Assembly: GCA_963575745.1 (NCBI GenBank)
Contig: CAUYUJ010000143.1
Coordinates: 62,001-117,683, forward strand
Direction of reading: 5' to 3'
Length of the DNA: 55,683 bases
Source: Prorocentrum cordatum
Taxonomy: Eukaryota
Position numbers and translations under genes: made by a program. Numbering within the stretch: the first letter of the stretch is position 1; each line of letters begins with the position of its first letter. Shown in pieces: positions 17,201 through 42,277 of this stretch. The notes beneath the pieces are model-generated. The model had not been told where the DNA came from, ran no database searches, and was given only the letters and a program-made list of their open reading frames with translations.

Positions 17201-17545
17201 AAGCCCCCCCCCTTTGCAAAGAAGGGGGGAGTGGGGTAGCTTGAAGCCGCCCCCCCCTGTGTCCAGATCAAAAAAGGAAGGAGGGGGGGGTCAGCTTCCG
17301 AAGCCCCCCCCCTTTAAAAAGGAAGCCCGAGCTCACCTTCTGCTCCGGAAAAGGGAGGGACGGGGGGGATAGCTTCGAAGCCCCCCCCCCTTTAGCCAGG
17401 ACCCCCCCAGCTCAAAATTGCTTCCAAAAGGGAGGGGGGAGGGGGGTAGCTTCGGAAGCTCCCCCCCCTTTTCGAAGGATGGGGGGAGGTAGCTTGAAGC
17501 TGGGTCCCCCTTTTAGTATTGAGTTCCGTACGGGCGCGCTCTTTC
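14255..17545. mobile_element. 3.3-kb non-autonomous TIR element filled with G/C-run subterminal repeats and an internal satellite
   Basis: Left end GAGAGAGCGCGCGCGGGCGGAACTC versus reverse-complemented right end GAAAGAGCGCGCCCGTACGGAACTC. AAGAGTAG is duplicated at 14073-14080 (repeated at 14247-14254 after the MITE) and 17546-17553. Confidence 0.72.
14840..17097. repeat. A-rich satellite built from CGAGAAAA, CGAACCAGGG and ACCACGACCCAGGGGC subunits
   Basis: Direct reading: dozens of diverged copies of CCGAGAAAACGAGACCACGACCCAGGGG. Confidence 0.92.
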
Positions 17546-18109
17546 AAGAGTAGGAAGGATGACACATCGAGAAAAGGACACCCTTTTTAAAAACAGTTTG
17601 GAGACCTGTGGGGGGGGGACGAGGAGGAGGAGGAGGAGGAGGAAGAGGAGGAGGAGGAGGAGGAGAAAGAGGAGGACGAGGAGAAAGAGGAGAAGGAGGA
17701 CACAAAGACATAATTATCGACAGTGCAAGCATGACGCTACTACTCGAGGCTTCCCTCAGCTCTCAGCGACAAGACGCGAAAGTCTTCTGCAACTCTATGC
17801 AGCCCGTCCCTAGCACATCGTTGCTAATACCAATCAGAGCAAGCACGGTAGAGGTCGGTAGCCCCGGGGAATTGGAGCCCCGGGTAACGGTAACGCTTGA
17901 GCGGGGTGGGGCACGTGGGGGCGGGGTTCGGCACGTACGATCGCCAATGTATGCGCGCGAGCCCCAGCATCTGGGGGGGGTAGGTATCCACCCCGCCCCT
18001 CTACGTGCGATCGTCACCGCTACCCCCGGGGGGGACTAGTTCACGTTCGTTATGCGCCACATGAGCAAATACATATTCTCCCGCGGTGAACTCACCCGAT
18101 GCGAGGAGA

Positions 18110-19525: not shown

Positions 19526-19549
19526 CTTCAAGCCAAAATGGCCACTGGG
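19526..19549 (-). other. More degenerate spliced-leader relic
   Basis: Reverse complement reads CCCAGTGGCCATTTTGGCTTGAAG and retains the GCCATTTTGGCT core. A (CCT)n tract lies ~15 nt upstream. Confidence 0.6.
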
Positions 19550-19689
19550 ATAAGGTAGAAAAAGAGGAGGAGGAGGAGGAGGAGGAAGGAGGAGGAGGAA
19601 GAGGAAGGAGGATCAGGATCAGGAGGAGGAGGAGGAGGAGGAGGAAAAGGACTGCGGGGCAACCCCTCAAACACCAAGCTCAGTCCCGG

Positions 19690-20730
19690 GCGGGAGGTGC
19701 CCGCGGCCGCGCTGACGGGCCGGCGGAAAGTGGAGCCGCGGGCGCTGGTCCTGAGGCACGGGGCCTTCCCGCCGGTGCCTGCGACCACTGCTGCCGCCCC
19801 GCCGCGGAGAGCATCCTGGCCCAGGGGAGCCCAAAGGTGGCGCGCGCGTTTCTTCCAGCTGCAGGCGACCGGCCTGGACCGTCAGCCAGCCGCGGCGCTG
19901 CTCCGACTCAAGACGGGCTCCGACTAAATACACGTTCGTGGACCGCACCTGCGGCATCCCAGAGACCGAGGCTTGGGCCTTGGACGCAGCGCTGGCGGCA
20001 GAGGCGCAACACGCCCTCGGACTACAGCTGAGCGGCACGGCGGGCACGCAGCTCTTCCTTGCTGGGAACGACGGCGGCGCCGGGTTCCAGAGCGTGGAGC
20101 TGATCGCGCCAGCCGCCCACGCCGCTTCCTGGCACCACAGCCTGCCGCACTGCCTGCGCGGGCTAGCCAGCACTGACGGACGCCAGCGCCCTGGCCGCCC
20201 TCAGCCCTTGAGCGCAGCGCTGCCCCCTTGCGGCCACGGTCACTGCTACAGGATACGCTAGAAGATTCTACGGCCCAAATAAGCGACGAAGGACTGGCAG
20301 CAACGCAGCACGCATTGACCACGGCCCCCCTTGCTTCGGCTGCCCTCCGGGTCGCCGACCTCGCGGCAGGCGAAGGCCCGCCCGCGGCGGCCGCCGTGCG
20401 CTCGGCAGGAGGGCCCAAGGCGAGCGGCTGGCTGCAGGCCCCCACGCGAGCGTGCCACCGCTTCAGCAACGCACAGTTCGGCATCGCAATAGGGGTTCTC
20501 CTGAACCTCGACCTGCCAGGCTGCACAGGGCTCGGCCAGCACCGCCACCCCAATGGCGAGGTCTGCGGCGCGCCTCTCGACCCGAACGGCAGGCACGTGC
20601 GGGGATGTGCGGTCGAACCGCTGTTGGTCGACCCCACGGTCGTCAGCGCGGCCTCCCAGGACGCCCTGGCGCTCGGGGCTGCGAGGAGGCACGGGGCTGC
20701 AGCTGCTGCAGCAGAGCGGAGGAAGCGAGC
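19690..20730 (+). mobile_element. Decayed 3' fragment of an RLE-type (CRE-like) non-LTR retrotransposon
   Basis: Post-RT motif QLFLAGNDGGAGFQSVELIAPAAHAASW. Then SAGGPKASGWLQAP..RFSNAQFGIAI..LNL, a zinc knuckle remnant CGAPLDPNGRHVRGC, and an RLE-like LVDPTVVS...GAAAAAAERRKR. Frameshifts and stops separate the blocks. Confidence 0.7.
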
Positions 20731-21167
20731 CTCGGCAGCGTGCCACAGCAGCACGTTGTGGCCGCGGTGCCGGCCGCCACCCAGGCCAGGCCCTGGCGAG
20801 CCTCGGCAGCGTGCCACAGCGGCACGTTGTGGCCGCGGTGCCAGCCGCCACCCAGGCCAGGCCCTGGCGGGCGGCTGCCGCGCCTGCGGCTGCGCGGCAG
20901 GGCCACAGCACCGGCTGGCGCCGGCGCTGCGGCGGCAGGGCCGACGGGCCTCGCGCCTCGCGGGCGCCGCTCCGCCTGGCGGGCGGGCAGAGGACGCCAC
21001 GGCGCCAAGCGGAGGAGGAAGAGGAGGAGGAGGAGGAGGAGGAGGACCTTAGGGCGGAAAGCGCCGAGGAGGAGGAGGAGGAACAGGAGGAGGAGGAGGA
21101 GGAGGACGAGAACCCCTCAGGGCGACAAAGGGCCAGAGGAGGAAGAGGAGGGGGGGGGGGAGTAGAA

Positions 21168-21198
<31 letters not shown>

Positions 21199-21518
21199 GA
21201 GGAGGAGGAGGAGGAGGAGGAGGAGGAGGAGGAGGAGGAGGAGGAGACGGAGGAGGAGGAGGAGGAGGAGGAGAAAGAGGAGGAGGAGGATGAAGAAAAA
21301 GAGACGAGGGAAGAGGAGGAGGAGGAGGAGGATCAGGAGGAGAAGGGGAGGAGGAGGAGGAGGAGGAGGAGGAGGAGGAGGAGGAGAGGAGGAGGAGGAG
21401 GAGAGGAGGAGGAGGAGGAGGAGGAGGAGGAGGAGGAGGAGGAGGAGGAGGAGGGAGAGGGGGAGGAGGAGGAGGAGGAGGAGGAGGAGGAGGAGGAGGA
21501 GGAGGAGGAGGAGGAGGA

Positions 21519-22578
21519 GCGGATGAGGCTGATGCCGGAGGGCTGGGAGCGCCGAGGAGTAGGAGTATGAAGACAGAGAGCCGCGAGCAGGAGGATGCCG
21601 ATGGGCCTGAGGAGGGGCGCTGGCGCCAGCGCGGACGGGCCAGAGGTGGAGGAGGAGCGGTGGCGGAGGGATGCAGAGGAGGGGAGGCAGGGGAGGAGGA
21701 GGAGGAGGAGGAGGAGGAGGAGGAGGAGAGGAGGAGGAGGAGGAGGAGGAGAGACGAGGAGGAGGAGGAGGAGGAGGAGGAGGAGGAGGAGGAGGAGGAG
21801 GAGGAAGGAGGAGAAGGAGGAGGAGGAGGAGGAGGAGAGGAGGAGGAGGAGGGAGGAGGAGGAGGAAGGAGGAGGAGGAGGAGGAGGAGGAGGAGGAGGA
21901 GGAGGAGGAGGAAGACGCGGCGGCGGCGGCTGACGCGGATGAGGTTGATGCCGGCCCCAGGGATGGGAGCGCCGAGGAGTAGGAGGATGAAGACAGAGAG
22001 CCGCGAGCAGGAGGATGCCGATGGGCCTGAGGAGGGGCGCTGGCGCCAGCGCGGACGGGCCAGAGGTGGAGGAGGAGCGGTGGCGGAGGGATGCAGAGGA
22101 GGGGAGGCAGGGGAGGAGGAGGAGGAGGAGGAGGAGGAGGAGGAGGAGGAGGAGGAGGAGGAGAGGAGGAGGATCAATAAAAAGAGGACGAGGAGGAAGG
22201 AGGAGAGGAGGAGGAGGAGGAGGAGGAGGAGGAGGAGGAGGAGGAGGAGGAGGAGGAGGAGGAGGAAGGAGGAGGAAGGAGGAGGAGGAGGAGGAGGAGG
22301 AGGAGGAGGAGGAGGAGGAGAGGAGGAGGAGGAGGAGGAGGAGGAGGAGGAGGAGGAGGAGGAGGAGGAGGAGGAGGAAGACGCGGCGGCGGCGGCTGAC
22401 GCGGATGAGGTTGATGCCGGCCCCAGGGATGGGAGCGCCGAGGAGTAGGAGGATGAAGACAGAGAGCCGCGAGCAGGAGGATGCCGATGGGCCTGAGGAG
22501 GGGCGCTGGCGCCAGCGCGGACGGGCCAGAGGTGGAGGAGGAGCGGTGGCGGAGGGATGCAGAGGAGGGGAGGCAGGG
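21519..22578. repeat. Three near-identical ~175-200-bp units separated by variable (GGA)n tracts
   Basis: GCGGATGAGG.TGATGCCGG...GAAGACAGAGAGCCGCGAGCAGG...GGGAGGCAGGGG at ~21519, ~21914 and ~22380. Confidence 0.9.
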
Positions 22579-23129
22579 GAGGAGGAGGAGGAGGAGGAGG
22601 AGGAGGAGGAGGAGGAGGAGGAGGAGGAAGAGGAGGAGGAGGAGGAGGAGGGGGAGGCGGCAGCCGGCGAGGCGGGGCCCGAAGAGGCTGAGGAGCTGGA
22701 AGAGACCGCGGAGGAAGAGGCGGAGGCAACCCCCCGTGCAGGGGGCGCCGAGAAGGATGAGGAGGCAGGGGCGAGGAGGAGCTGCTGCTGCTGCTGCGGA
22801 GGAGGACAAGTAGGCGGCGGTGGTAGGTGGGCCAGACGCGGCGGCGGCGGCAGCGGGAGGCCGAGCGCAGCGGCGTCGGCGCCTGGGCGGAGCGCGACCA
22901 GGGCGGACTTTCTCACACGCCTGGCCATTCCACCCGCTCCGAAGTTGGGCGGGTGCCGGGGCCGCTGCAGCTGGAGGAGGAGGAGGAGGAGGAGGAGGAG
23001 GCCGAGCGTCCCAGAGGAGGAGGAGGAGGAGGAGGAGGAGGAGGCATAACGCTCACCGAAGGGGGCGAGGAGGAGTAGGTCGAGGATTGAGAGAGGATTG
23101 GGGGAAGGAGGCGAAGGAGGATAAGGCAT

Positions 23130-23360
23130 GACCCGAGTGTCCGGGTCGACGTAAAAGGAATGCACATCATCGATACCACAATGACTTCCATCCAGAAGAA
23201 AGACGATGTTGCCGGCCACCTGGCGAATTGTGATCTGGCCGTCTTCGTCCATGAAGCGTATCTCGGTATTGGTCGCCTGCACGGCCGGATCTAGAAACAG
23301 AGGCTTAAGGGACACTTTCAAGAAGTGGCCCTTCGCGACCCTCAACGACGTCGCGTTGTG
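23130..23360 (-). CDS. Candidate exon(s) (…ATNTEIRFMDEDGQITIRQVAGNIVFLLDGSHCGIDDVHSFYVDPDTRV)
   Basis: Protein-like translation in unique sequence; boundaries approximate. Confidence 0.5.
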
Positions 23361-23623
23361 CGGGGGCTCCTCTCGAGCACGCTGTCCCGGGCGGGGGGGG
23401 GGGGGGCGGCAAGAAGGGTGAGGAGAGGGATGGGAGGAGGCATCGAAAGGGGCAGAAGGGATAGGAAGGAGGTGAACGATGAGGAGGAAGAGGAGAAGGA
23501 TGAAGCAGAACCATCCATCCCGCTCCGTGAATCCCTGCTACCGCTGGTTCCTGGAGGTCTCGACCCCTTCTCCGGGACTGCATGTCTTTTCTTTCACCCT
23601 GAAGTACTCCCCATGTACTCAGT

Positions 23624-25450: not shown

Positions 25451-26222
25451 GCGACGACGACGACGACGAATGTAGCACGTCTGTAATCAGCCTGGGGGAG
25501 GGGAACACTTCGCCTCGGATGCATTCGATCCCTATAACACCTCTTATACGAAAGGGAATATTTCTGTGGCTGCCTGTGCACGAGGGTACACGATCCCCTC
25601 GGCGACGCCCGCGACGACCCCCTGGCACGCGTGCTTACAAAAACTGTTTCGCGCCCCGCGGGGTCTATTCATCAGCCCCAGGGAGGGGGGGGTCCATCAT
25701 TTGTTAATCACAAGCTGACATCACACACGAATTCGTACCCGTAAAAAGGACAACACAGCGCATTTGGTAGAAAATTTCCTGGACACGCGTGCACTCCGCC
25801 CAAAGACTGCATCAGTGAACGCGAATTGTACACAGCAGCCTTGACAGCACGCAGCGGCAACATGCCATTGAGGGCACCCCAGAACATGAGAAGAAGTGCG
25901 CGCGGAACAGCAGTGCTTCTGCAGGGTACGAATGGCGCGGGACTCTGGCCGTCACCAAGAACAGCGGCGCCTGGAGGAGGAGGGAGGAGGAGGAGGAGGG
26001 GGAGAAGGAGGAGGAGGAGGAGGAGGAGAAGGAGGAGGAGGAGGAGGAAAAGGAGGAGGAGGATGGGCAGGGGGAGGAGGAGGGGGAAAAAAAGGAGGAG
26101 GAAAGGGGTGGGGGAGGAGAAGGAGGAGGAGGAGGAGGAGAGGAGGAGGGGGAGGAGGAGGAGGGGGCGGAGGAGGAAGTCTTTCTTCGGGAGGAGGAGG
26201 AGGAGGAGGAGGAGGAGCGCAC

Positions 26223-26261: not shown

Positions 26262-29200
26262 CTATCGACGCATTGCGGCGAGAGCGGCAGCTCGTACATC
26301 GTAGTGGTAAGAAGGCGTCGCCGACCTCCTTGGGTGGGAGGCCAGGTCAGCCTTCAGCTTATGATAGATATGGAAGCTGAGGACGACCACGCGATGGCAA
26401 CGTACGCGTGGGCATTCGGCTTCAGCATCGGGCGAGGGCCCGAGCCCGAGGCGAGTGAGGGGACAGGAAGGAAGGAAGCCTCGGGGAAGAGCAAGGAGGT
26501 GAAGGAGGCGGGGGCACGAGATGTAATGGGCGAAATCATCGGCGGCATCGGCGCAGCCGAGGAGGCACTGACGGGGTGGCTCACACGGGATGCGGGCCGC
26601 CGTGGTCCACGCCCCCGCCAGAGTTTTGATGTGGGCCCAAGCCCAGGATGGGGGACTCCGAACGAGGATTCCTCGGAGCGCCTCCCAGCGACTGGTGAGT
26701 TCGGCAAAGGGGAGAGGAGGAGCAAGGGGGAACCAAGAGGAGATACGACGGGCGAGAAGAGAGGGAAAAGAGTCAGGATACAGGGACGCATGGAGACTCA
26801 GAGAGATGGCTCGCTGGGGTCTCGACCGTCTGGCAGTGGCGGCGGCGTCAGCAATCTCGTGCCGTGCGGTGGCCTCTGCGCGATGCCAGGCGGCTCGGGC
26901 GATCCCAGGTGGACCGCCGAGCATCACATCCTCAAAATATTCTGCGATGGAGAGCGGGCGTCGCCACACAGCGCTCGAGAGACCGCGGGAGCCCAGCGCG
27001 CCGAGCGGTCCGTGCATTTCAGCCTGGACCCGAAGGAGCGAGAGGGCCTGGCTCCAGCCCCTTGGGCCGTCCTTGGAGAGGGTGCACGCAGCGGTCCTCC
27101 AGACGGAGGCTCCAGCCAGGACACGCACGGGCCTGGGGACCGAGGATCGGAGCCAGGAGCCGAGACCCAAGAGCTCCCCCAGGCCGAAGGCATTCGGGGG
27201 GAGGCGGAGGAGGCGGTGGAGGACGTGGCGCTCGGAGCGAAGGAGGGCGAGGGGAGGGGGAAAGAGCTGGCAGACATAGCTCAGGACAGAGAGGATGCCA
27301 AAGTTGTAAATTCGGCAGCTTGCCTCTGCAGGGGTCCGGCTCTGTGCAACCTCTGTCGTGCGTCTCTGCCACTTGCGAATAGGGTCGGCCCACTGGTCCG
27401 AGAGAGTTGCCCCAGGACCGAAAGCAAACCCCAGGAACGGCGTGGACCCGCGAACATGGAAGGAGGCCCACTCTGGAGCCAGGTCAGTTATCTTCGCACT
27501 CACGCGAGCCGCAGCGCAGGGCGTGCATTCAACTGCCAGCGGGACAGCACAACATTTGTCCGGCTGGAGCTCAAGATTGGCTAGAGTGCGGGCGGCGGTG
27601 AAGGGTGGAATGAGCAGGGGGAGGAGCCGAATCGAAGGGAGAGTGGCACCGACATCATCCGCCGTCACACCGCACTCAGGCTCTAGTCTTGGACACCAGC
27701 GTTCGGGTCTCGGGCAGAGGGCCAGCGCCTCGGGCGACGACAGTTGAGACTGGATGTGGCGGGCAAAGGGATCCATTGAGAGGGCCCAGATAGTGCCAGA
27801 GAGGGGGCATCCCTGGGCCACGCCAGACGTCACCAGGAAGAGAGGGCGGCGGGATGCTCCACATCGGGAGTGGGCGAGAGCCCCAGAGTACAAGGCAGAG
27901 ATCACATTAAGGAAGCCCTTCGGGATGCGGTGACGCTCGAGCACACGCCAGAGGAAGGGCTGGGAGAGAGAGGGAAACGCGGCCCTGAGGTCAAAGGAGA
28001 CGAAGAGGGGGGACAGCTCAGGGTGGTGGCTGGCAGCGCGAGCGACCGCGTCCTGACGGACGACGTGAGACAGGAAGTTCCGCCCGCGCACGAAGCCTTG
28101 CTGGCTCTCGTGCACTCTTGCGGCCACTAGCGGGGCAAGCACATGATTCGCTGCACTAGCCACCGCCTTGGCGTCACAATTCTTGAGACTCAGAGGGCGA
28201 AGCTTCGACGCATGGCGGACCACCTCAACGGAGTCCGAGGGCTCGTCACCCTTGGGAACGAAGACCATGTCTGCGAAGTTGAAGCCGTGCGGCGCACCCC
28301 TGCCCTGGTACAGGCCGATCATCATGTCATAGAGGATGTCCACCAATCTTGGATCCGCCAACCAGGCGGCCGCAGGGAGCCGGTCAGGTCCAGGTGCAGT
28401 GGGCTTGGCGCGAAGCAGCGCAGCGCGCAGAGCAGTTGGCGAAGGAACCTCCAAAGCGGGGCTGTCGAACTCAGGAAGATGAGTGCGCAGGTAATCGTCA
28501 ACCGCATTGATGTCAACTGGGCGATCGGTGAACGTGGGCTGCCAGTGCTGACGTAGGCCATCCATGATCATGGTCGGGTGACGCTCGATGCCCGCCTGGT
28601 GTCCCTCGCCGTCCATGCGGAGACCCTTGAGCACCAGCCGCCGACGGTATGGTATCCAAAGGAGGGCGCGCCGTTGAGCAGCTCGCTGTATCTTCCGCAG
28701 CTGCTGGATGGTGGGGTCACCCGCATCAAGCTGTAGTTGAGCATGTTCGCGGAGTCTGGCAGCTGCTGCAGCTTGCTGTTGTTCGTGCCAGGCAAGATGA
28801 AGGTCCATGCACTCTCGTTCAAATGCAGGGGGATTGGTCAGCAGGATGCGGTTGTCGCCATCGATGGTGAGGTGCAGGCGGCCCATGGCAGTGGAGTGGA
28901 TCAGCTTGTGCGCAAGGTGCGCGTCCTGCCTCCATATGGCTCTGGCAATCGCACGTGTCGATATTCTGCGACCCTCAAGAGCGTCAGCGTGGCCATCGCC
29001 GATGGGGAGGGCCTGGAGCTCATTGCGGGTGATGCGAGCAGCTTCGATCATCTGCAGCTTCACCTCAGTCCATCGGTTCTCCTCTGCTATGTTCGTGAAG
29101 TCGGAGTGGTTGAGCAGGTTGGTGATGTGCTTGGCGAACCGTGGCGAGTTGAAGACGCTCTGGGGGATCGCGCGATCGTCAGGGGCCGCTGCAGCACGGG

Positions 29201-31787
29201 GCTGGATCCGCAGCTGGATGATGGCATGATCGCTGAGGCCCCAGTCCGCCAGGGAGGTCGCCTCCTGCCAGATCTCGAATGTGACGGAGGTGTCCAAGAG
29301 GAAGTGCGACTTCAGAGAGATGAAGGCCCTGTCGATGAACGTGCACGACTGGTGGCGCTTGGAGTAGTGGATGGGAAGCTCGGACACGATCTCCACCATG
29401 TCGCGTTGGAAGAGACTGCGCCAGAAGCTCTGTGCTTGGTTGCCACGGTGCCAGACCGATCGGCTGTTGCCACCAGCTCGTCGGTAGTCACCCTTAGCCA
29501 ACTCTGATGAAGAATCCGAGGAGGAGGATTGCGAAGAGGAAGACGAAGATGAGGAAGAGGTAGTAGGAGCTCTCCGTCGCCGAGAACCCCGTGTTGGTGC
29601 CGAAGTGGAGGTCGCGCTCGGGGAAGAAAGGTGCACCGGCTCGATGTCAGCAATGTTGAAGTCCCCGATGGCGATGAAAATACGGTGTCGTTCGTCACTT
29701 TGCGCCCATGCAGCTCCGTCGAGCCAGCAATGGCGCACCAGAGGAAGTTTGGCTGCAGGCAGCTCATGGTTGTGGATGTTCATGATCTTGATGTGCTCGT
29801 TGTTAGTCAGATTGCTGATGGTGAGGACTGCGACGCGACCATCGATCACGGAGTCCAGGGAGAGGGAAGGGAGCATCTGAGGGTCCAGCGTCGCGAGCTC
29901 CGCCTCAGAGAACCATGGAACCAGGAAGGCAACGCCGCCAGCCCCAGGGGAGGCACCCGCGGACATGACGGCACGGTAATGGTAGGGCGTCTGGTTCAGC
30001 AGCGTCTGCAGCCTGATCTCGGACCCGTGCGCCTCCTGGACGACAATCAGCATGCGCATCTGAAGAAGCTTGCAGAGCCGTTGCATCTTGTTGTTGCGTC
30101 GATGAGCACGCTGGCAGAGATGCCCTTGGGCGTTCCATGATGCAATACGGAGCGCCTGAGTGGTGCTGGGGCCCTGGCCCTGGGGAGCAGCCAACTCCCA
30201 GGGCGTCCAGCGTGGGCTAGGAACAAGACCAAGTGGAGGTGTCGACCTCCGTGTTGAAGGTGGTGGCCTCGCAGAATTGGTCGATGATCTTCTGCCGCTC
30301 GTCGTCGCTGATGTAGCGTGTGGTCTCGGGGTGCCAATATATGCGCGAGGGCTCGTGGAAGCCCTGTGGGACGACCTCAATGATGGGCACTGCGTTGACG
30401 CTGATGATACCCTTCGGGCGGATGGCGGTCCAGTCGCGGTGGTTCGAAGCGAAGGACTGCTGCAACAAGGAGAGGAGCCTCTTGGTGTGCATCTCTCGGC
30501 GGATCTGGCGAGGGGCTTTGTCGGCACCCACGTGGAGTGGCACCAGTCGCCCGTCAGGTGTCTTGACTTGGAAGGATCTCCAGGAGCCTCCAGGGAGTCG
30601 CAGCGCGCGTGCCAGTGCAAGGGCGCGGGCACCACCAACTCCAGCATCTCCCCGAACTCGCAGGAAGAAACGCTTGGAGGGGACCTCCGCGCCGCCGACC
30701 AGCTCCAAATATTCGGGCGCCACTGTGGAGGCGCCAAACCATTCTGAAAGGCTAGCCAAGACCGCATTCTTGGCCACCATTGAGCTGCAGTTGGCGGAGA
30801 ATAGAAGTGGGTCAGCCTCACGGTCATACTCGGCCAGCTTGGCCAGGTCGGTCGCTGGGAGGGCCTTCTCCGCCATGGCGAGCTGTTCACGGATCTCGCC
30901 AATCTGCTTGCGGAGGACGACGTTGCTCTGCTCCAAATCAGACTGGCGACGCTTGAGCTGGTGGATCTCATTCGACTGGTGGGCCACATTCTTGAGCACG
31001 GGGTCGATATAGCCAGCCATGGCGCCCACCAATTCCTTGTGGGCGGTGGCCAGAGACTGCGTGCAGATGCTGTTGAGCTGGGTGACCGTGGAGTCCATGC
31101 GGGCCTGGACCAGCTCCAAGAGACTGTCCTGGATAGAGCTTGGCGACCCGCTTGCTCCAGCAGCAGGCGCACAGGGCGTGTCGGTCCCGCCGACTGGTGT
31201 GGCCGTGTCCTCCTGCGTCTCCAGCACCTGGAAGTCGCGCTCGATGTCACGCAGCTCTTGGGTGGAGAACTGTGGCCCCGTTGCCGCTGCACCCCGCCAG
31301 GGATCGCATGTCTGGAGGGCATCTGGGGCAGGGGGGGCCACAGCCGCCGCGCCGGCTGGCGCCGAGGCGCTAGAGCTGCTGCTCGCTCCAGCCCACTGCG
31401 GCGGGGCTGCCAGGCTGCCAGGTCCGTCGCCGCGTCGCAGGCGATCACGTTCACTACGTTCACGATGGGCGGGGGCGCGCGTGGATGGCGGAGCAGGGCG
31501 GTCGGCAGGGCCTCTGCCAATGTCAGCCCAGGCCTTGCGTCGAGCGCGACGGCGCGGGCGGTCCTCGCCCCCGCTGCGGCTGTGCTCGTCACGGCCCCCA
31601 CGATCATCAGAAGAGCTGCCAGAGCCATCCGAGGCCATGCGAAAAAACAAAGTCGTGACTGAGGAGAAAGATTCGTGTTGGCGATGGTGTGGGGCACTCG
31701 CCCAGAAGGGGGAGCTCCAGCAGCCTGTGGTGTCGGGCCGCTGCTGGGAGCCCCCCGAAGCTGACCTGGCCAGCTGCCTCGGGACAT
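26262..31787 (-). CDS. LINE ORF2 polyprotein: APE endonuclease (~30152-29210), reverse transcriptase (~28410-27420) and C-terminal CCHC zinc finger (~26570-26515); true start uncertain
   Basis: APE motifs: LRIASWNAQG, VQEAHG, GGVAFLV, DGRV, IAIGDFN, FIDRAF, LSDHAII. RT motifs: TAPGPDRLP, LRPLSLKNCDAK, QQGFVRGR, FDLRAAFPSL, SGVAQGCPLSG, TADD, FLGFAFG. Finger: CLLGC-x8-H-x3-C. Stop TAG at 26264-26262. Confidence 0.93.
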   Translation of the reverse strand: MSRGSWPGQLRGAPSSGPTPQAAGAPPSGRVPHTIANTNLSPQSRLCFFAWPRMALAALLMIVGAVTSTAAAGARTARAVALDARPGLTLAEALPTALLRHPRAPPPIVNVVNVIACDAATDLAAWQPRRSGLERAAALAPRRQPARRLWPPLPQMPSRHAIPGGVQRQRGHSSPPKSCVTSSATSRCWRRRRTRPHQSAGPTRPVRLLLEQAGRQALSRTVSWSWSRPAWTPRSPSSTASARSLWPPPTRNWWAPWLAISTPCSRMWPTSRMRSTSSSVASLIWSRATSSSASRLARSVNSSPWRRRPSQRPTWPSWPSMTVRLTHFYSPPTAAQWWPRMRSWLAFQNGLAPPQWRPNIWSWSAARRSPPSVSSCEFGEMLELVVPAPLHWHARCDSLEAPGDPSKSRHLTGDWCHSTWVPTKPLARSAERCTPRGSSPCCSSPSLRTTATGPPSARRVSSASTQCPSLRSSHRASTSPRAYIGTPRPHATSATTSGRRSSTNSARPPPSTRRSTPPLGLVPSPRWTPWELAAPQGQGPSTTQALRIASWNAQGHLCQRAHRRNNKMQRLCKLLQMRMLIVVQEAHGSEIRLQTLLNQTPYHYRAVMSAGASPGAGGVAFLVPWFSEAELATLDPQMLPSLSLDSVIDGRVAVLTISNLTNNEHIKIMNIHNHELPAAKLPLVRHCWLDGAAWAQSDERHRIFIAIGDFNIADIEPVHLSSPSATSTSAPTRGSRRRRAPTTSSSSSSSSSQSSSSDSSSELAKGDYRRAGGNSRSVWHRGNQAQSFWRSLFQRDMVEIVSELPIHYSKRHQSCTFIDRAFISLKSHFLLDTSVTFEIWQEATSLADWGLSDHAIIQLRIQPRAAAAPDDRAIPQSVFNSPRFAKHITNLLNHSDFTNIAEENRWTEVKLQMIEAARITRNELQALPIGDGHADALEGRRISTRAIARAIWRQDAHLAHKLIHSTAMGRLHLTIDGDNRILLTNPPAFERECMDLHLAWHEQQQAAAAARLREHAQLQLDAGDPTIQQLRKIQRAAQRRALLWIPYRRRLVLKGLRMDGEGHQAGIERHPTMIMDGLRQHWQPTFTDRPVDINAVDDYLRTHLPEFDSPALEVPSPTALRAALLRAKPTAPGPDRLPAAAWLADPRLVDILYDMMIGLYQGRGAPHGFNFADMVFVPKGDEPSDSVEVVRHASKLRPLSLKNCDAKAVASAANHVLAPLVAARVHESQQGFVRGRNFLSHVVRQDAVARAASHHPELSPLFVSFDLRAAFPSLSQPFLWRVLERHRIPKGFLNVISALYSGALAHSRCGASRRPLFLVTSGVAQGCPLSGTIWALSMDPFARHIQSQLSSPEALALCPRPERWCPRLEPECGVTADDVGATLPSIRLLPLLIPPFTAARTLANLELQPDKCCAVPLAVECTPCAAARVSAKITDLAPEWASFHVRGSTPFLGFAFGPGATLSDQWADPIRKWQRRTTEVAQSRTPAEASCRIYNFGILSVLSYVCQLFPPPLALLRSERHVLHRLLRLPPNAFGLGELLGLGSWLRSSVPRPVRVLAGASVWRTAACTLSKDGPRGWSQALSLLRVQAEMHGPLGALGSRGLSSAVWRRPLSIAEYFEDVMLGGPPGIARAAWHRAEATARHEIADAAATARRSRPQRAISLSLHASLYPDSFPSLLARRISSWFPLAPPLPFAELTSRWEALRGILVRSPPSWAWAHIKTLAGAWTTAARIPCEPPRQCLLGCADAADDFAHYISCPRLLHLLALPRGFLPSCPLTRLGLGPSPDAEAECPRVRCHRVVVLSFHIYHKLKADLASHPRRSATPSYHYDVRAAALAAMRR
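30217..31638 (-). CDS. LINE ORF1-like protein (473 aa from MASDGSG): disordered N-terminus, central coiled coil, globular C-terminal region
   Basis: ATG at 31638. Heptad-like segment LKNVAHQSNEIHQLKRRQSDLEQSNVVLRKQIGEIREQLAMAEK. Normal protein-like composition. Ends just upstream of the APE domain, the usual ORF1 position. Confidence 0.8.
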   Translation of the reverse strand: MASDGSGSSSDDRGGRDEHSRSGGEDRPRRRARRKAWADIGRGPADRPAPPSTRAPAHRERSERDRLRRGDGPGSLAAPPQWAGASSSSSASAPAGAAAVAPPAPDALQTCDPWRGAAATGPQFSTQELRDIERDFQVLETQEDTATPVGGTDTPCAPAAGASGSPSSIQDSLLELVQARMDSTVTQLNSICTQSLATAHKELVGAMAGYIDPVLKNVAHQSNEIHQLKRRQSDLEQSNVVLRKQIGEIREQLAMAEKALPATDLAKLAEYDREADPLLFSANCSSMVAKNAVLASLSEWFGASTVAPEYLELVGGAEVPSKRFFLRVRGDAGVGGARALALARALRLPGGSWRSFQVKTPDGRLVPLHVGADKAPRQIRREMHTKRLLSLLQQSFASNHRDWTAIRPKGIISVNAVPIIEVVPQGFHEPSRIYWHPETTRYISDDERQKIIDQFCEATTFNTEVDTSTWSCS

Positions 31788-31793
31788 GGATTA

Positions 31794-31815
31794 CTTGAGC
31801 CAAAATGGCTACGGA
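31794..31815 (-). other. Complete dinoflagellate spliced-leader sequence (retro-integrated)
   Basis: Reverse complement reads TCCGTAGCCATTTTGGCTCAAG, an exact match to the DinoSL consensus DCCGTAGCCATTTTGGCTCAAG. Confidence 0.97.
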
Positions 31816-32357
31816 GGAGGAGGAGGAGGAGGAGGAGGAGGACGAAGACGCGGAGGACGCGTGGCGGCCACTTGCAGCCCTCGAGCCTCAGCCTGCGGCC
31901 CTCGAGGAGGAGCCGAGGCCCCTTCGTACCCTGCGCCGGCGTCGGGCTCCAGCGGCCTCGGCCCGCTCGGAATCGGCCCCCGGGCCCTTCCATGGGGCCC
32001 ACCCTCCCTCTGAGGGGCAACGATAGGGGAGGGATAAGCACAGGGGGGGGACGCCTAGACCTGGAATCGGCGATGCGTCGTCGATAGATCGGCGATGGGC
32101 CTCCGATTGTGAATCCACACCCTCCCGGGCAGACTGGGGCCATCGGGCCACTATCGGCGATCCATGGGCGATTGGGGGTCGATGCATCGCCCCCCTGTGC
32201 CTATCCCCCCCTATCGTTGCCCCTGACCTGAGGCCCGGCGCTGCGAAGACGCGACGACATCGCGAAACGTCGCGACCGAAGCTCTGGACACAGTCTGCCT
32301 GCGGCACTTCTCGAGCCGGCTCGATCTGTGACGGCCCCGGGGCCCGAGCCCCTGGCG

Positions 32358-33232
32358 AAACCCCGCATCCTGCGCCCTCGAAGAGCGTGTGCAACTCAGG
32401 CGCTGTCTGACACGTGCTCCTGATGAAACCAGCGCCGCCTCCTGCTGGGCGCGGGGCGAGGACCTGGGGGGAGGAGGAGGATCGAGGGGAAGAGGGATCA
32501 TGATCGAGGAGGAGGAGGAGGAGGAGGAGGAGGAGGAGGAGGAGGAGGGGGAGGAGGAGGAGGAGAGGAGGAGGGAGGAGGAGGAGGAGGGAGGAGGGAG
32601 GAGGAGGAGGAGGAGGACGAGGAGGAGGGGAGGAGGAGGAGGAGAGGAGGAGGAGGAGGAGGAGGAGGGGGAGGAGCGAGGAGGGGAGGAGGAGGAGGAG
32701 GAGGGCCGAGGAGGAGGAGGGCCGAGGGGAAGATCTGGGTCTCCCCTTCTCCCGCCTTTCCGGGCGGCTCCGCCCCGAGGTCGCGAGCTCCAGGTGCCGT
32801 CGCAGACGGCTCCCTCGCGGAGGGGCCCTCTCGGCCTCCAGTTCTCGGCCTCGATCTTCCCCTCGGCCCTCCTCCTCCTCCTCCTCCTCCCCCCTCCTCC
32901 CACCTCCTCCATCCTCCTCCCTCCTCCTCCTCCTCCTCCTCTCTCCTCTCCCTCCTCCTCCTCCCTTCCTCCTCCTCCCCTCCTCCTCCTCCTCTCCTCC
33001 TCTCCTCCCCCCCTCCTCCTCCTCCCCCTCCTCCTCCTCCTCCTCCTCCTCCTCCTCCTCCTCCTCCTCCTCCTCCTCCTCCTCGATCATGATCCCTCTT
33101 CCCCTCGATCATCCTCCTCCCCCCAGGTCCTCGCCCCGCGCCCAGCAGGAGGCAGCGCTGGTTTCATCAGGAGCACGTGCCAGACAGCGCCTGAGTTGCA
33201 CACGCTCTTCGAGGGCGCAGGATGCGGGGTTT
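32358..33232. repeat. ~875-bp foldback (inverted duplication) with a ~115-bp spacer
   Basis: AAACCCCGCATCCTGCGCCCTCGAAGAG...GATCATGATCGAGG (32358-32510) is mirrored at 33080-33232. (GGA)n faces (CCT)n. Inner arms are GAGGGCCGAGGGGAAGATC and GATCTTCCCCTCGGCCCTC. Confidence 0.9.
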
Positions 33233-33480
33233 TGCCCTTGGGGGAGGCTCACCACTCCCCAGCACGCAGCACGGGCATGTCCCTGCGGCCAAAGGCGCCC
33301 GAACAGGACGGACACGTGCGGCGGAGACGGGGAGAAAGGAGGAGGAGGAGGATGCGGAGGAGAGGGAGGAAGAGAGGGAGGGAGGGATGGGAAGGAGAGG
33401 AGGATGAGGAGGAGGAAAAGGACGACAGGGAGGGAGAGGGAGAGGGTTGGGAAAGAGAGAAGGAGGAGGAGGAGGAGGAG

Positions 33481-33514
<34 letters not shown>

Positions 33515-33519
33515 AGGAC

Positions 33520-34380
33520 CAGCGTAAAACCAAAGGTCATCAACGATGTTGGAATTAAACCTCCCTCCAAGCTCCCTCCCCATAGGCCCCCACACTGGTT
33601 CATTTCCATTGAGGGAACTGCCTCGTTGGAAGACAACCGTTTGAAGATCCTGAAGCATGCGAAAACATTGTTCTCGAGATTTCAGCGCCACGTATCAACC
33701 TGACTGCTGCGTATTGACGATCCAGAATCGTCCCAGAGGGCCATGTTGTGGACTTCAACACCGCGCATCAACATAACTGCTGCACCTGGATAATCCTGAA
33801 TCCTTCCCCAAAACACCGTTCCTGGTACATTGATCATGGGAGTCCGTGAAAGCGTTGAAAATGTTGAAGACGATTGTGCGCGGCGCTAAGGCGAGAGCCA
33901 CATTGAAAAGAAACCGCCCTCAATCCGTGAAACTCTTGCACATGTTGAAAGCGAATGTGCGCGGCGCTAGGGCGAGAGCCACATGCTGAAAACGACCCGC
34001 CCTCAATCAGTGAAACTCTTGAAAAAATTGAAAAAGAATGTGCGCGGGGCTTAAGGCGAGAGCCACATGTCAAAAACGACCCGCCCTCAATCCGTGAAAC
34101 TCGTACAAAATTTTAAACAGAATGCGCGCGGCACTAAGGCGAGAGTCACATTTTGAAAACGACCCGCCCTCACTCCGTGAAACTCTTGCAAAGTGTTTGA
34201 AAGCGAATGCGTGCGGCGCTAAGGCGAGATCCACATTTTGAAAACCACCCGCCCTCCATCTGTGAAACTGTTGCCACTTTTCCAGCTTCAGAATCAGAAA
34301 TGGTGAGGAAGTCTCGGGCGGAACAACCGGCCCGCCCCAAAAACTGGCCTCGGGCTGCGACAGGGAGGAGCCATCTATCA
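33520..34380 (+). repeat. Dispersed repeat family with a ~78-bp internal tandem unit; related copies at 24530-24910, 53000-53250, 53660-54410 and 54545-54665
   Basis: CTGCCTCGTTGGAAGACAACCGTTTGAAGA is shared between 24622 and 33618. Tandem unit CCGCCCTCAATCCGTGAAACT...GCGCGGCGCTAAGGCGAGAGCCACATTTTGAAAACGAC. Confidence 0.85.
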
Positions 34381-39450: not shown

Positions 39451-42277
39451 AGACCAGAGCGCCGGCAGCCAGGGCAGCCAGACCTCCAGAGTCTTTGACG
39501 GTTCGACCTCTGGCCTCGCCGGGCCCCCGGGATCGTCAAAAACGACCCCAGATAGAGAGTTGGCCCTGGGGAGATGGTAGGAACTCTGGCTGGGGAGGGC
39601 CGTCGGATTTTTTTATATAAAAAAGCCTTGGGTGTCTGACCTGGGCAGAATGTTCGAGGTTAGACCATGTATGTGCGTTCCTCGTCCTTTCGGGGCCCCT
39701 GGGATTTTCCTCGTCGCCAAGGCTGGATCGGCATCGAAACTTCAGCTATGGAGCAACCCTGGACAAGTTCGGGGGGATTCGATTCCTGACCTCAGGGCCC
39801 CGTGAACGAGGACTCTGGCAAACCAGGACACTTGCACGCCCGGTGAAACCGCAGCCAAGCACCAAAACATTCCTCCTCCTCCTCCTCCTCCTCCTCCTCC
39901 TCCTCCTCCTCCTCCTCCTCCTCATCCTCCTCATCCTCCTCCTCCTCATTCTCCTCCCAGTCTTCTTTTTCTTCATCTGGAACTTTGGGGATCCAGGTCT
40001 GCAATGCCCTGGAGCCTGCCCGCGCAGGAGATTCATCTTATCCACCAGTCTGGAGACGCAGGCCTGTCAACAAGATACAGTTGGACTTAGGCCAGAAGGA
40101 CATCCCTCAAGAACACGAAAGCCTCAGCCGGCAAAGCACACAGAGAACATCTGAGGGCACCCTCCCCAGGATGTACAAGAACATCCAACGAACACCAAGA
40201 ACATTAGGATACCCTCCCCGAACCGACCTCGATCTTCTACCTCGGTCCGACTGTGTGCCCAAAGGGGGTGTCTGCCATGGCTTTCTCGGAGGCTGCTGAA
40301 GGTGCCCCTGGCTGAAGGCGTTCCCAGGGCCCCGTGAGGGGAGCTCTGGAGGCCGTGGAGACCTCATTGGAAGTCTGGGGGGCACCTTGGGCCCAGGATA
40401 CGTCTGGCAACACGCGAACCCATAATCGGGAAAGCAGACCCTGCGGTCCGGACATCCTGTTGGGGCTCGAGGGACGCACCCGCGAGAACCCCGGGGGCAC
40501 GCCGGGTGTGGCCACGCTTCCGCCTCCGGAGGCGCCCGCATCTCCGACGCTGCCCGAAGTGAACGGGAGTCCTCCAGACCGGTGGAACTGGGCGAATGCA
40601 CTCGGGCATTCGTTCACGGGGAGGGGGAGGGAGGGAGGAGGGGAGGAGGGAGGGAGGGAGGGAGGGAGGGAGGGAGGGAGGGAGGGAGGAGGGGGGAGGG
40701 AGGGGGGGAGGGAGGGAGGGAGGGAGGGGGGAGGGGGGGAGGAGGGGAGAGGAGGAGGAGGAGGAGGAGGAGGAGGAGGAGGAGGAGGAGGAGGAGGAGG
40801 AGGAGGAGGAGGAGGAGGAGGAGGAAGGAGGAGGAGGACGAGGAGGAGAGGAGGAGGAGGAGGAGGAGGAGGGGGGGCATGAAGGGGGGGATGACGAGAC
40901 AGGCGCCGTCCCAGCACTCTTCCGGGCGGCGCTTGCAGCTTCATAAGGCTCGAGGGCCCTTCGGGACCGCTCTCCTGCCAGGCCTGGACTGGGCTCTCCC
41001 GGGCATCCGAGGCGTGGAGAGCCCTGGGGAGGTGGCCATGAGCCGGCGTCTGGCCCCTGCTCCCGGCAGCGCTCTGCGGGGAGGGGGGCGGCGGAGGCGG
41101 GAGGGAAGGCGGGGCGAGGGGACGCCAGGAGGGGGAGGGGGGGAGGGAAGGGGACGGGAGGAGAGGGGGTGGGAGGGAGGCGAGGACTGGTCAGGGAGGC
41201 GGGAGGGGGAGGGGAGGTCCCCTGAGGAGGGTCCCAGACGTCCGCGAAAGAGGCATCCCGAAAAGAACGAAGCGCGGCCCGAAAACCTTGATTCTCTATC
41301 GTGGATCCTGGATGGGCGGGAAGGTGCGAAGACGCAGGGGGTCCTGCGTCCAGGCGTCCAGCCCCCAAAAGTCCCGACGCCCTCCTTTGCTGCGGGGTAT
41401 GCAGCCCAGCTTGTCGTCCCCGACCCGCTCCTGATCGCCCCCCCACCCCCCCCGCGAGGCCGCAGGGAAGAGAACGGTGCCGGGAGCGGACAGGAGAGTT
41501 CTTCCAGACGTCTGGGGGGGGGACCCCGGCACCCCGTCGAGGTCTGAGCCCCCCCGCGTCCTCGGCCCCGACGGGGTCGAACCCCGAGCTGGACGAGCTG
41601 GAGCCCGACCTGCGGCGAGGGCGGCAGGGGAGCACGAGGGGCCCGTGGCCCAGGCACCCGCGGGGCGGGGAGCACACCCACGGCCACGGCCCCGCGGGCC
41701 GCTGCGGATGCCACGCGCTGCGCGAAGCGCAGCCATGGCATCGCACCGCGATGCCAAGACCGCCCCAGGGCCATCCACCAAGAAGAAACAACGATTCTGG
41801 TACCCTTCACGATACAGTCGGGGCGTTGACCTAAGGAACCCTAAATAAGGAACGGGGCCCCTTTCTCCCATAAGTCCCACCAGCCCTTTGGGCGTGAGTG
41901 GTTTAGGGAGCTCTCTCTGTCCTCAACCCCCCTTCTTCCCCTTCGGGGAGGGGTTTACCCCTCCCCCTACCCCCTCCCCCTGGACCTGGAGAGGGAGTTC
42001 CGCGGGTCGTCAGGGGGGTCTTTTTCGACGTCTGGGAGGGCCAAAAAACGACGACCCTCACGAGGATTCTGGCCCCGAGGGGGGGGGGGGGAGTTTGGTG
42101 CCTCAGCTCGTCTTTGAAGCAAAAATCATTGATTTTACTAGGGTTTTGGGCCCATTTTGGGCTTCTGAGGGGCAGCGCTCATCGTCCTTCATAGCAAAAT
42201 CATTGATTTTACGAAGGTTTTGGGCTCATTTTGTCCTTCTCAGGGGGCAGCGCTCACTTGCGCTTCTGAGGAGGTCG

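What the first reader, a model, noticed from the sequence alone, without database searches (positions are those of the whole stretch)
30217..31787. ORF2 frame is open across all of ORF1 and starts at the first AUG after the SL (dual-coding region)
Seen: the AUG at 31787 opens 1841 stop-free codons. ORF1 (AUG at 31638, the second AUG) sits entirely inside this span in another frame for ~1.42 kb. There is no Met close before the APE motif LRIASWNAQG, and the next Met lies inside the domain. The overlapping frame reads like a shifted frame rich in W/S/R/P, where TGA would normally arise from xTG-A junctions, yet none occur. Inference: the frame is kept open by selection, so ORF2p is made either with a ~540-aa overprinted N-terminal extension (with ORF1 by leaky scanning) or via a frameshift. 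Canonical LINEs have separate or only briefly overlapping ORFs.
Basis: partly seen in the sequence, partly recalled or inferred. Interest (0 to 1): 0.8.

Follow-up and report, generated by a model that had tools for sequence, protein, structure and literature searches.

The report
LINE ORF1 nested inside ORF2 frame
A dinoflagellate L1-like jumping gene keeps its ORF2 reading frame free of stop codons across the whole of its ORF1 gene, starting at the first AUG of the spliced-leader mRNA, which suggests an unusual, virus-like way of making its two proteins.

Summary
On the minus strand a 22-nt DinoSL relic (31794-31815) is followed 6 nt later by an ATG (31787). That ATG opens 1841 stop-free codons ending in APE and RT domains. 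ORF1 (30217-31638, 473 aa) lies wholly inside this frame; the ORF2 frame is +1 relative to ORF1.

ORF1 is a real gene: coiled coil plus an L1-ORF1p-like fold, homologues in three relatives, and variants concentrated at its third positions. The ORF2-frame extension is not conserved as protein.

Its lack of stops exceeds chance. Synonymous shuffles expect 4.6 stops, P(0)=0.0014-0.0033. None of 36 NTG codons is followed by A, against 22 of 96 in ORF2 proper. A distant relative (P0087) reads the same +1 frame across at least 219 codons of an ORF1 homologue.

The mechanism is untested. I favour initiation at the weak first AUG with leaky scanning to ORF1. Rivals are a +1 frameshift at the UCC-UAG end of ORF1, or chance. 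No DNA of close relatives could be fetched, so conservation rests on one protein. I rate it a new variant of a known kind, of moderate to high interest.

The parts
31794..31815 (-). DinoSL spliced-leader relic at the 5' end of the element
   Evidence: Read. 22 of 22 to DCCGTAGCCATTTTGGCTCAAG as quoted in PMC7245778.
31785..31787 (-). AUG1. It is the first AUG after the SL, 6 nt downstream, and opens the ORF2 frame. Context: T at -3 and T at +4.
   Evidence: In-frame TAA two codons upstream (31791-31793). P0051 (80 % identical, 71 aa) starts at the same Met.
26262..31787 (-). 1841-codon open frame: N-terminal extension, then APE, then RT, then a Cys-rich C-terminus
   Evidence: Pfam RVT_1, E 8.4e-18. 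PDB sequence search: human L1 ORF2p, E 3e-19. Alignment A2.
30217..31638 (-). ORF1 (473 aa), frame 0. It lies wholly inside the ORF2 frame; this span is the dual-frame region.
   Evidence: Coding potential and GC3. Homologues P0081 (E 8e-26), P0026 (8e-18) and P0053 (4e-6). 16 of 26 variants at third positions.
30862..31137 (-). ORF1 long helix (residues 168-259), presumed coiled coil
   Evidence: AlphaFold model.
30265..30801 (-). ORF1 alpha/beta domain (residues 280-458), L1 ORF1p RRM-CTD-like
   Evidence: pLDDT 70-88. All top 10 Foldseek PDB hits are human L1 ORF1p, probability 0.66-1.00, with low TM.
30217..30222 (-). End of ORF1: UCC UAG, followed by C. A +1 slip here enters the ORF2 frame.
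   Evidence: Antizyme shift site UCC_UGA in PMC5009743 (passages).
29388..30155 (-). APE endonuclease domain of ORF2 (about residues 545-800)
   Evidence: Motif at residue 548. Alignment with relatives, one of which (P0003) carries PF03372.
27543..28211 (-). Reverse transcriptase core (residues 1193-1415)
   Evidence: Pfam RVT_1.
25973..26216 (-). (TCC)n-rich 3' tail after a 45-nt 3' UTR; there is no poly(A)

Best explanation
This is an intact L1-like LINE of a dinoflagellate, copied from a spliced-leader-capped mRNA. I propose that its two proteins are made from one mRNA by alternative initiation. A minority of scanning ribosomes start at AUG1, which sits 28 nt from the cap in the weakest context (pyrimidine at -3, U at +4). 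They read the ORF2 frame straight through ORF1, making ORF2p with a roughly 545-aa passenger N-terminal extension whose sequence is free to vary. Most ribosomes leak past AUG1 to AUG2 (G at +4) and make the abundant ORF1p. Selection therefore removes every stop from the +1 frame of ORF1 but does not conserve the peptide it encodes.

Shown: the layout, the excess openness, the lack of peptide constraint, and the same +1 nested frame in one distant relative.
Inferred: that the frame is translated, and that translation starts at AUG1.
For: 1. The frame is open for 524 codons upstream of ORF2 proper, with P 0.0014-0.0033 under codon-aware nulls that are calibrated on ORF2 proper and on three of the four other ORF1 frames (nulls).
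2. 0 of 36 NTG codons are followed by A, against 22 of 96 in ORF2 proper. Synonymous choice contributes: 0 of 6 against 30 of 55.
3. The open frame begins at the first AUG of the mRNA, 6 nt after the SL, and no AUG lies between it and the ORF1 AUG.
4. A copy that is 80 % identical keeps that Met and the open frame for 71 codons (P0051).
5. A frameshift or reinitiation at the ORF1 stop needs only a short overlap. Whole-length openness is needed only if the frame is read from upstream.
6. P0087 (26 % identical in ORF2) reads in the +1 frame across an ORF1 C-terminal domain homologue. The degenerate back-translation test gave z 6.2 and 5.2, with 0 of 100 shuffles reaching the score. The other frame was negative. 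The positive control on the window gave z 4.5-10.
7. Proteins P0053 and P0026 carry the ORF1 domain fused upstream of APE, so a large N-terminal addition to APE occurs in this clade.
Against: - No ribosome, peptide or RNA data exist. No RNA run was listed.
- The start-context rule is the general eukaryotic one and was not tested for dinoflagellates.
- P is about 1e-3 from one sequence, noticed post hoc.
- P0087 shows openness only from about residue 150 onward, and its N-terminus is in the ORF1 frame (1 of 200 shuffles). It may be an indel copy or a gene model. A rough estimate of its chance openness is only 0.002-0.015.
- 21 of 25 relatives with the APE motif have it within 45 residues of the predicted N-terminus.
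- The ORF1 stop sits in a +1-shift-like context.
- A 545-aa junk N-terminus on an endonuclease may be harmful.
Confidence: 0.4

Rival explanations
1. ORF2p is made by a +1 programmed ribosomal frameshift at the ORF1 stop codon (UCC UAG C). This would give an ORF1-ORF2 fusion like Gag-Pol of Ty elements. The long upstream openness is then incidental.
For: - ORF2 is in the +1 frame in both the window and P0087.
- The last sense codon plus stop is UCC-UAG, with a UGG three codons upstream. Most antizyme genes shift +1 at UCC_UGA, with a conserved UGG just upstream (PMC5009743, passages).
- Fused ORF1-APE-RT proteins exist among relatives (P0053 and P0026).
Against: - It does not explain 474 stop-free codons (P about 1e-3), nor P0087's 219 or more codons.
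- The 131 nt around and after the stop fold no better than shuffles (z -0.89; 37 of 200 shuffles fold as well).
- The stop is UAG, not UGA.
- The resemblance to antizyme is short and could be chance.
Confidence: 0.2
2. The open frame is a chance by-product of GC-rich codon usage. ORF2 is then made as in other L1s, by unconventional termination-reinitiation or non-AUG initiation near the APE start.
For: - The +1 frame expects only 4.6 stops.
- Long open frames are common in this window: 40 of 300 aa or more.
- One control frame is also lowish (rc1: 3 against 7.1, P 0.02).
- The finding was picked out by eye.
- The extension shows negative coding potential and free amino-acid change (19 of 26 variants).
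- Human L1 ORF2 is said to start by an AUG-independent mechanism (PMC5009743 passage).
Against: - P(0 stops) is 0.0014-0.0033 under nulls calibrated on ORF2 proper and on three of four other ORF1 frames.
- The depletion of A after NTG is specific to ORF1 (Fisher P 5e-4).
- The other long frames lie in DNA with 5-10 % T, unlike ORF1.
- A second, less GC-rich family shows the same layout.
Confidence: 0.25
3. Ribosomes or the polymerase slip +1 at one or several places inside ORF1. This would yield ORF1-N-terminus/linker/ORF2 fusions, so the frame must be open from the slip site onward.
For: P0087 has exactly this architecture as a continuous protein. Its residues 61-152 match the ORF1 helix region in frame (1 of 200 and 5 of 200 shuffles). 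From about residue 150 it reads the +1 frame into APE.
Against: - No slippery motif was identified.
- P0087 may simply be an indel-bearing dead copy or a spliced gene model.
- Openness in the window reaches AUG1, further than any internal slip would need.
Confidence: 0.1

Closest known systems
LINE-1 (L1) non-LTR retrotransposons
   Same: ORF1p has a long helix plus an RRM/CTD-like fold; all top 10 PDB fold hits are human L1 ORF1p. ORF2p has an N-terminal APE, an RT closest to human L1 ORF2p among solved structures (E 3e-19) and a Cys/His C-terminal motif.
   Different: L1 ORFs are separate or overlap only briefly, and ORF2 starts near the APE. Here the ORF2 frame runs from the mRNA's first AUG through all of ORF1. 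The tail is (TCC)n, not poly(A). The 5' end is a spliced-leader relic. Clade placement by phylogeny was not done.
Leaky-scanning nested genes of RNA viruses (for example luteovirus CP/MP, Sendai P/C; recalled, not from a call)
   Same: The first AUG is in a weak context and opens the long frame. The next AUG opens a second frame nested inside it. One capped mRNA is used.
   Different: In the viruses both frames encode conserved proteins. Here the overlapping part of the long frame shows no peptide constraint. Translation of both frames is not shown.
+1 frameshift sites of antizyme and Ty1/Ty3
   Same: The downstream frame is +1. The shift-prone codon UCC sits directly before the ORF1 stop, as in UCC_UGA of antizyme (PMC5009743).
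   Different: The stop is UAG. No supported 3' structure was found. The overlap is far longer than such sites need.
SymbioLINE elements of Symbiodinium (PMC5890265, passages)
   Same: Dinoflagellate LINEs with an ORF1 upstream of an RT-bearing ORF2.
   Different: Those carry a DNMT in ORF1. No nested or frame-open layout is mentioned in the passages read.
Single-ORF relatives P0053 and P0026 (unnamed database proteins)
   Same: A homologous ORF1 domain (E 4e-6 and 8e-18) sits directly upstream of a homologous APE-RT.
   Different: There the ORF1 domain and APE are in one frame, as predicted proteins. Their DNA was not seen, so introns or indels cannot be excluded. The junction test on P0026 was inconclusive.

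Membership tests
APE-type non-LTR retrotransposon (LINE), L1-like | Reverse transcriptase domain of the LINE type | tested here: met
   Pfam RVT_1, E 8.4e-18, above cut-off. Best solved relatives are human L1 ORF2p (E 3e-19), then R2.
APE-type non-LTR retrotransposon (LINE), L1-like | N-terminal apurinic/apyrimidinic-type endonuclease in ORF2 | tested here: met
   Pfam gave no APE hit at E 0.01. However, the SWN, QE.HG, GDFN and SDH motifs align as invariant or near-invariant columns with relatives. One of these, P0003, carries PF03372.
APE-type non-LTR retrotransposon (LINE), L1-like | ORF1p with coiled coil, RRM and CTD | tested here: met
   Model: helix 168-259 and an alpha/beta domain 280-458. 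Foldseek top 10 are all human L1 ORF1p, probability 0.66-1.00, but TM is 0.14-0.16 and the MSA had only 4 sequences.
APE-type non-LTR retrotransposon (LINE), L1-like | Poly(A) 3' tail and target-site duplication | tested here: not met
   The tail is a roughly 245-nt (TCC)n-rich repeat. The 5' flank is also (CCT)n, so a TSD cannot be read.
APE-type non-LTR retrotransposon (LINE), L1-like | Placement inside the L1 clade in an RT phylogeny | not tested
   No tree was built. Relatives found are 20-35 % identical and unnamed.
Leaky-scanning bicistronic mRNA | 5'-proximal AUG in a poor context, next AUG in a different frame, no AUG between them | tested here: met
   AUG1 has T at -3 and T at +4. AUG2 has C at -3 and G at +4. 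There is no ATG between 31785 and 31638. The rule is the general eukaryotic one and is not verified for dinoflagellates.
Leaky-scanning bicistronic mRNA | Both frames are translated from one mRNA | not testable with these tools
   No RNA holder was listed. No ribosome or peptide data are available.
Programmed +1 ribosomal frameshift | Downstream frame +1 and a shift-prone P-site codon before a slow or stop codon | tested here: met
   UCC UAG C at 30217-30222, compared with antizyme UCC_UGA (PMC5009743).
Programmed +1 ribosomal frameshift | Stimulatory 3' RNA structure or other conserved stimulator | tested here: inconclusive
   Fold of 30110-30240: z -0.89, and 37 of 200 shuffles fold as well. 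No relatives' DNA was available for covariation.
Dual-coding (overprinted) gene pair | Purifying selection on the protein of both frames | tested here: not met
   Of 26 visible variants, 17 are silent in ORF1 and 19 change the residue in the ORF2 frame. The ORF2 frame has negative coding potential from 31360 to 30280. Only 40 of 351 variants were shown.

The most novel reading that the evidence does not exclude
A clade of spliced-leader-capped, L1-like LINEs in dinoflagellates has replaced the usual ORF1-stop-then-ORF2 restart with a virus-like strategy. ORF2p would start at the very first AUG of the mRNA and be read through a stop-cleansed +1 frame of ORF1, while ORF1p comes from leaky scanning. 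The layout would be conserved between families that share only about 26 % ORF2 identity. This would be the first LINE in which the long-debated ORF2 translation step is solved by 5'-proximal initiation, possibly because trans-spliced dinoflagellate mRNAs reinitiate poorly.
Probability: 0.35. Interest if true: 0.8.

Novelty: new variant of a known kind. Interest (0 to 1): 0.6.

Why it matters
How LINEs translate ORF2 from a bicistronic mRNA is a long-standing open question. Reviews read here still call it unknown (PMC3894237, whole text part 1 and passages; PMC5009743, passages).

An element whose sequence demands that the ORF2 frame be readable from the cap-proximal AUG would offer a natural, testable alternative: leaky scanning sets the ORF1p:ORF2p ratio. 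It would also show selection acting purely on 'no stop codons', without protein constraint.

For annotation, such elements would be called as a single 1841-aa 'protein' and ORF1 would be missed.

My searches of the held library found no paper describing a LINE with ORF1 nested in the ORF2 frame. This covers only the open-access library.

Tried and rejected
Getting DNA or close relatives:
- Own genome: not held.
- Other copies in the window: none by blastn or tblastn.
- The search for homologous proteins: ORF1 gave none. ORF2-frame residues 1-560 gave none. ORF2 residues 545-1841 gave one 29 % hit, P0003. The first two searches were saturated by 8000 word candidates, so these are weak negatives.
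- The search for related loci: ORF1 in metagenomes gave none. ORF2 gave none in viral or genome contigs. P0087 gave none in genome or viral contigs.
- Alignment A1 was too diverse for the tool. A2 returned 80 loci, all distant (20-39 % identity). None had an ORF1 homologue at E 1e-3 (0 of 80).
- The search of earlier findings: nothing in three look-ups.

Sequencing runs:
- No RNA holder was listed.
- Laying contigs: run X1 gave 255 contigs and no indels were listed. Only 40 of 351 variant places were shown. None of the 26 inside ORF1 makes a stop, but by chance P = 0.38, so this is uninformative.
- Small-share metagenome runs X2-X4 were laid. They add only short pieces.

Other tests that led nowhere:
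- First hidden-frame script timed out. It was rewritten.
- P0026 junction test for a hidden APE frame: inconclusive (best result 11 of 200 shuffles).
- RNA structure after the ORF1 stop: not better than shuffles.
- 2A-type skipping: I saw no NPGP motif in the extension when reading.
- Pfam on ORF1: only a sub-threshold coiled-coil hit.
Full report
WHAT IS THERE

On the minus strand the window carries one intact non-LTR retrotransposon. Read from its 5' end:
- A 22-nt relic of the dinoflagellate spliced leader lies at 31794-31815. It matches 22 of 22 positions of the DinoSL consensus quoted in PMC7245778 (passages).
- Six bases (TAATCC) follow. They hold an in-frame TAA.
- An ATG at 31785-31787 opens 1841 stop-free codons down to 26262.
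- No ATG in any frame occurs until the ATG at 31636-31638. That ATG opens ORF1 (473 aa, stop TAG at 30217-30219).
- The ORF2 frame is +1 relative to ORF1.
- After the ORF2 stop come 45 nt and then about 245 nt of (TCC)n-rich repeat instead of poly(A). The DNA just 5' of the SL relic is also (CCT)n.

THE TWO PROTEINS

ORF2 proper:
- It has a Pfam RVT_1 domain at residues 1193-1415 (E 8.4e-18).
- Its RT is closest, among solved structures, to human L1 ORF2p (E 3e-19), then to R2.
- It aligns over APE, linker, RT and a Cys/His C-terminal motif with unnamed relatives of 22-30 % identity.

ORF1 is a real gene:
- Its frame has the positive codon-usage score and high GC3 from about 31360 to 30280. 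The first 90 or so codons are ambiguous.
- Among the 151 other proteins held at that point (P0003-P0153), three carry a homologous domain: P0081 (E 8e-26), P0026 (8e-18) and P0053 (4e-6).
- An AlphaFold model from that 4-sequence alignment gives a disordered N-terminus, a helix at 168-259 and an alpha/beta domain at 280-458 with pLDDT 70-88.
- All top ten Foldseek PDB matches are human L1 ORF1p (probability 0.66-1.00, E from 2e-4). TM-scores are low (0.14-0.16) because the domains are oriented differently.

So this is an L1-like element: coiled coil plus RRM/CTD in ORF1p, and APE plus RT in ORF2p.

IS THE OPEN FRAME MORE THAN CHANCE?

The window is GC-rich and holds 40 stop-to-stop frames of 300 aa or more. 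Those checked outside the LINE lie mostly in DNA with 5-13 % T. The ORF1 region has 17-19 % A and T, and a mononucleotide model expects about 12 stops per frame. Codon-aware nulls are the fair test:

| Null | Shuffles | Result for the +1 frame |
|---|---|---|
| Shuffle synonymous codons within ORF1 | 20000 | mean 4.6 stops; 0 stops in 33 |
| Same | 3000 | P 0.0013 |
| Same | 5000 | P 0.0014 |
| Recode ORF1 protein with ORF2-proper codon usage | 20000 | P 0.0033 |
| Permute whole codons | 20000 | 0 stops in 1 |

The null is calibrated:

| Control frame | Observed | Expected |
|---|---|---|
| ORF2 proper, +1 | 27 | 23.4 |
| ORF1, +2 | 19 | 17.3 |
| ORF1, rc0 | 3 | 3.0 |
| ORF1, rc2 | 15 | 15.5 |
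| ORF1, rc1 | 3 | 7.1 (P 0.02) |

- ORF1 has 36 NTG codons. The next base is G in 25, C in 10, T in 1 and A in 0.
- In ORF2 proper, 22 of 96 NTG codons are followed by A (Fisher P 5e-4).
- Part of the signal is synonymous choice. The 6 Leu/Val codons that precede an A-starting codon all end in C (0 of 6 NTG, against 30 of 55 elsewhere, P 0.024). ORF2 proper shows the opposite tendency (17 of 31 against 59 of 184).

WHAT IS AND IS NOT CONSTRAINED

One DNA run (X1) holds many copies. 255 contigs were laid on 29000-31900: 36 at 99 % identity or more, 69 at 95-99 %, 75 at 90-95 % and 75 below 90 %. No indels were listed. Only 40 of 351 variant places were printed.

Of the 26 inside ORF1:
- 16 are at ORF1 third positions. 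All 16 are silent in ORF1 and all change the residue in the ORF2 frame.
- 6 are at first positions and 4 at second positions.

So ORF1p is under purifying selection and the peptide of the ORF2-frame extension is not. The extension's composition is that of a shifted frame (S/P/R/A 54 %, W 5 %).

None of the 26 variants makes a stop. But only 5.1 % of ORF1-silent changes could do so (54 of 1064), so P(0 of 26) by chance is 0.38. This carries no weight.

RELATIVES

A full HMMER scan of 1.84 billion representative proteins with ORF2-frame residues 1-1200 gave 726 hits, of which 150 were listed.

Useful hits:
- P0051 (71 aa, 80 % identical) starts at the same Met as AUG1 and stays open past the ORF1 start. 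Its differences match variants seen in X1 contigs.
- P0047 (82 aa, 70 % identical) is another ORF2-frame piece inside the overlap.
- Of 25 relatives in which my APE-motif pattern was found, 21 have it within 45 residues of the predicted N-terminus. The exceptions are P0053 (359), P0087 (385), P0100 (78) and P0123 (100). Predicted N-termini do not prove that the frame is closed upstream.
- At DNA level, only 7 of the 80 distant metagenome loci held an intact ORF of 500 aa or more with the motif. In 6 of these 7 the ORF2 frame closes 2-36 codons upstream of it. The seventh runs off its contig.
- None of the 80 loci has this ORF1.

THE P0087 RESULT

P0087 is 922 aa and 26 % identical to the window's ORF2 in A1. 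It has a W-rich stretch between an ORF1-like N-terminus and its APE.

Method. I converted its residues into the sets of residues possible in the neighbouring frames and aligned those to ORF1 homologues, with shuffles as null.

Results:
- Positive control. The window's own extension, read as '+1 of a hidden frame', finds the ORF1 domains of P0081, P0053 and P0026 (z 10.4, 5.7, 4.5) and its own ORF1 (z 54). The opposite frame finds nothing.
- P0087 residues 141-384, same mode, align end to end with P0026 130-345 (z 6.2, 0 of 100 shuffles) and with window ORF1 243-471 (z 5.2, 0 of 100). The match to P0081 is weaker (z 1.6, 8 of 100). The opposite frame is negative.
- P0087 residues 61-152 match the helix region of P0026 directly (1 of 200 shuffles) and of P0053 (5 of 200), but not P0081 (42 of 200) or the window (108 of 200).

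Reading. P0087 reads the ORF1 frame for about 150 residues and then the +1 frame across the rest of ORF1 into APE. Whatever caused the switch (an indel, a gene model or a native layout), its ORF2 frame is +1 and stop-free over at least 219 codons of an ORF1 homologue. The implied GC3 there is only 0.56. A rough at-risk-site estimate gives P 0.002-0.015.

Caveats. P0087 was found post hoc, and its DNA was not seen.

By contrast, P0053 and P0026 carry the ORF1 domain in the same frame as APE-RT. A hidden-frame test at the P0026 junction was inconclusive.

MECHANISM

Three routes to ORF2p need no long overlap: termination-reinitiation, non-AUG restart, and a frameshift at the ORF1 stop. The ORF1 stop context, UCC UAG C, does resemble the antizyme UCC_UGA site (PMC5009743). 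Only translation of the ORF2 frame from upstream explains selection for whole-length openness.

The layout fits leaky scanning:
- AUG1 lies 28 nt from the cap, with pyrimidine at -3 and U at +4.
- The next AUG opens ORF1 and has G at +4.
- Ten nucleotides further on there is another ORF2-frame AUG.

I therefore favour alternative initiation, with the extension as a passenger (confidence 0.4). Next come chance plus a conventional restart (0.25), a +1 frameshift at the stop (0.2) and internal slipping (0.1). The 131 nt around the stop fold no better than shuffles (z -0.89).

COMPARISON AND NOVELTY

The element is L1-like by RT, APE and ORF1p fold. It departs from L1 in its tail, its SL-relic 5' end and above all its nested layout.

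Reviews describe LINE ORFs as separated by a spacer or joined by a short stop-start overlap, and ORF2 initiation as unresolved (PMC3894237, part 1 and passages; PMC5009743, passages). Symbiodinium LINEs are described with an upstream ORF1, and the passages read do not mention nesting (PMC5890265). Five searches of the held library found no description of a LINE with ORF1 nested in the ORF2 frame. Subscription literature was not searched.

VERDICT

The mechanism is inferred only. This is a new variant of a known kind. Interest 0.6.

Noticed in passing
window 31794-31815 (minus strand): A full 22-nt DinoSL relic forms the very 5' end of the LINE. The element was therefore copied from a trans-spliced mRNA. 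The relic ends in AG, which could serve again as a trans-splice acceptor and free the element from needing its own promoter.
   Followed up: partly
window 25973-26216 and 31816-31842 (minus strand): The element ends in about 245 nt of (TCC)n-rich repeat instead of poly(A). It is preceded by (CCT)n that merges with the first TCC of the SL relic. Either it targets a (TCC)n microsatellite or it carries a repeat tail. No target-site duplication can be read.
   Followed up: no
window 14600-23600, 31900-33700, 40200-41800: Many overlapping stop-free frames of 300-880 codons occur on both strands, in strongly skewed low-complexity DNA with T as low as 5 % (Glu/Arg/Gly-type repeats). They inflate any naive 'long ORF' count in this window.
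   Followed up: partly
window about 27650-27720 (ORF2 residues just before the ADD motif): Relative to five aligned relatives, which read RAC-ADD, this copy has an insertion of about 10 residues and reads T-ADD at the RT catalytic motif. Whether it is tolerated is unknown.
   Followed up: no
window 30217-30231 (minus strand): ORF1 ends with UGG UCU UGU UCC UAG. This resembles the antizyme +1 shift site (UCC_UGA, with a conserved upstream UGG). A Trp near the ORF1 C-terminus is also present in the homologue P0026.
   Followed up: partly
proteins P0053, P0026, P0081 (no DNA seen): In these relatives the ORF1-type domain and APE-RT are in one predicted polypeptide. P0026 lacks the SWN motif at the junction, and P0081 lacks most of the APE.
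   Followed up: partly
window 30341-31012 and 31019-31798 (plus strand): Antisense to ORF1 lie ATG-initiated ORFs of 223 and 259 aa. One antisense frame of ORF1 (which one was not mapped) has fewer stops than synonymous shuffles expect (3 against 7.1, P 0.02).
   Followed up: partly
window 29689-29769: One X1 contig (depth 3.7) skips 79 bases inside ORF2 with GT..TG ends (table 5). It is probably a deleted copy.
   Followed up: no
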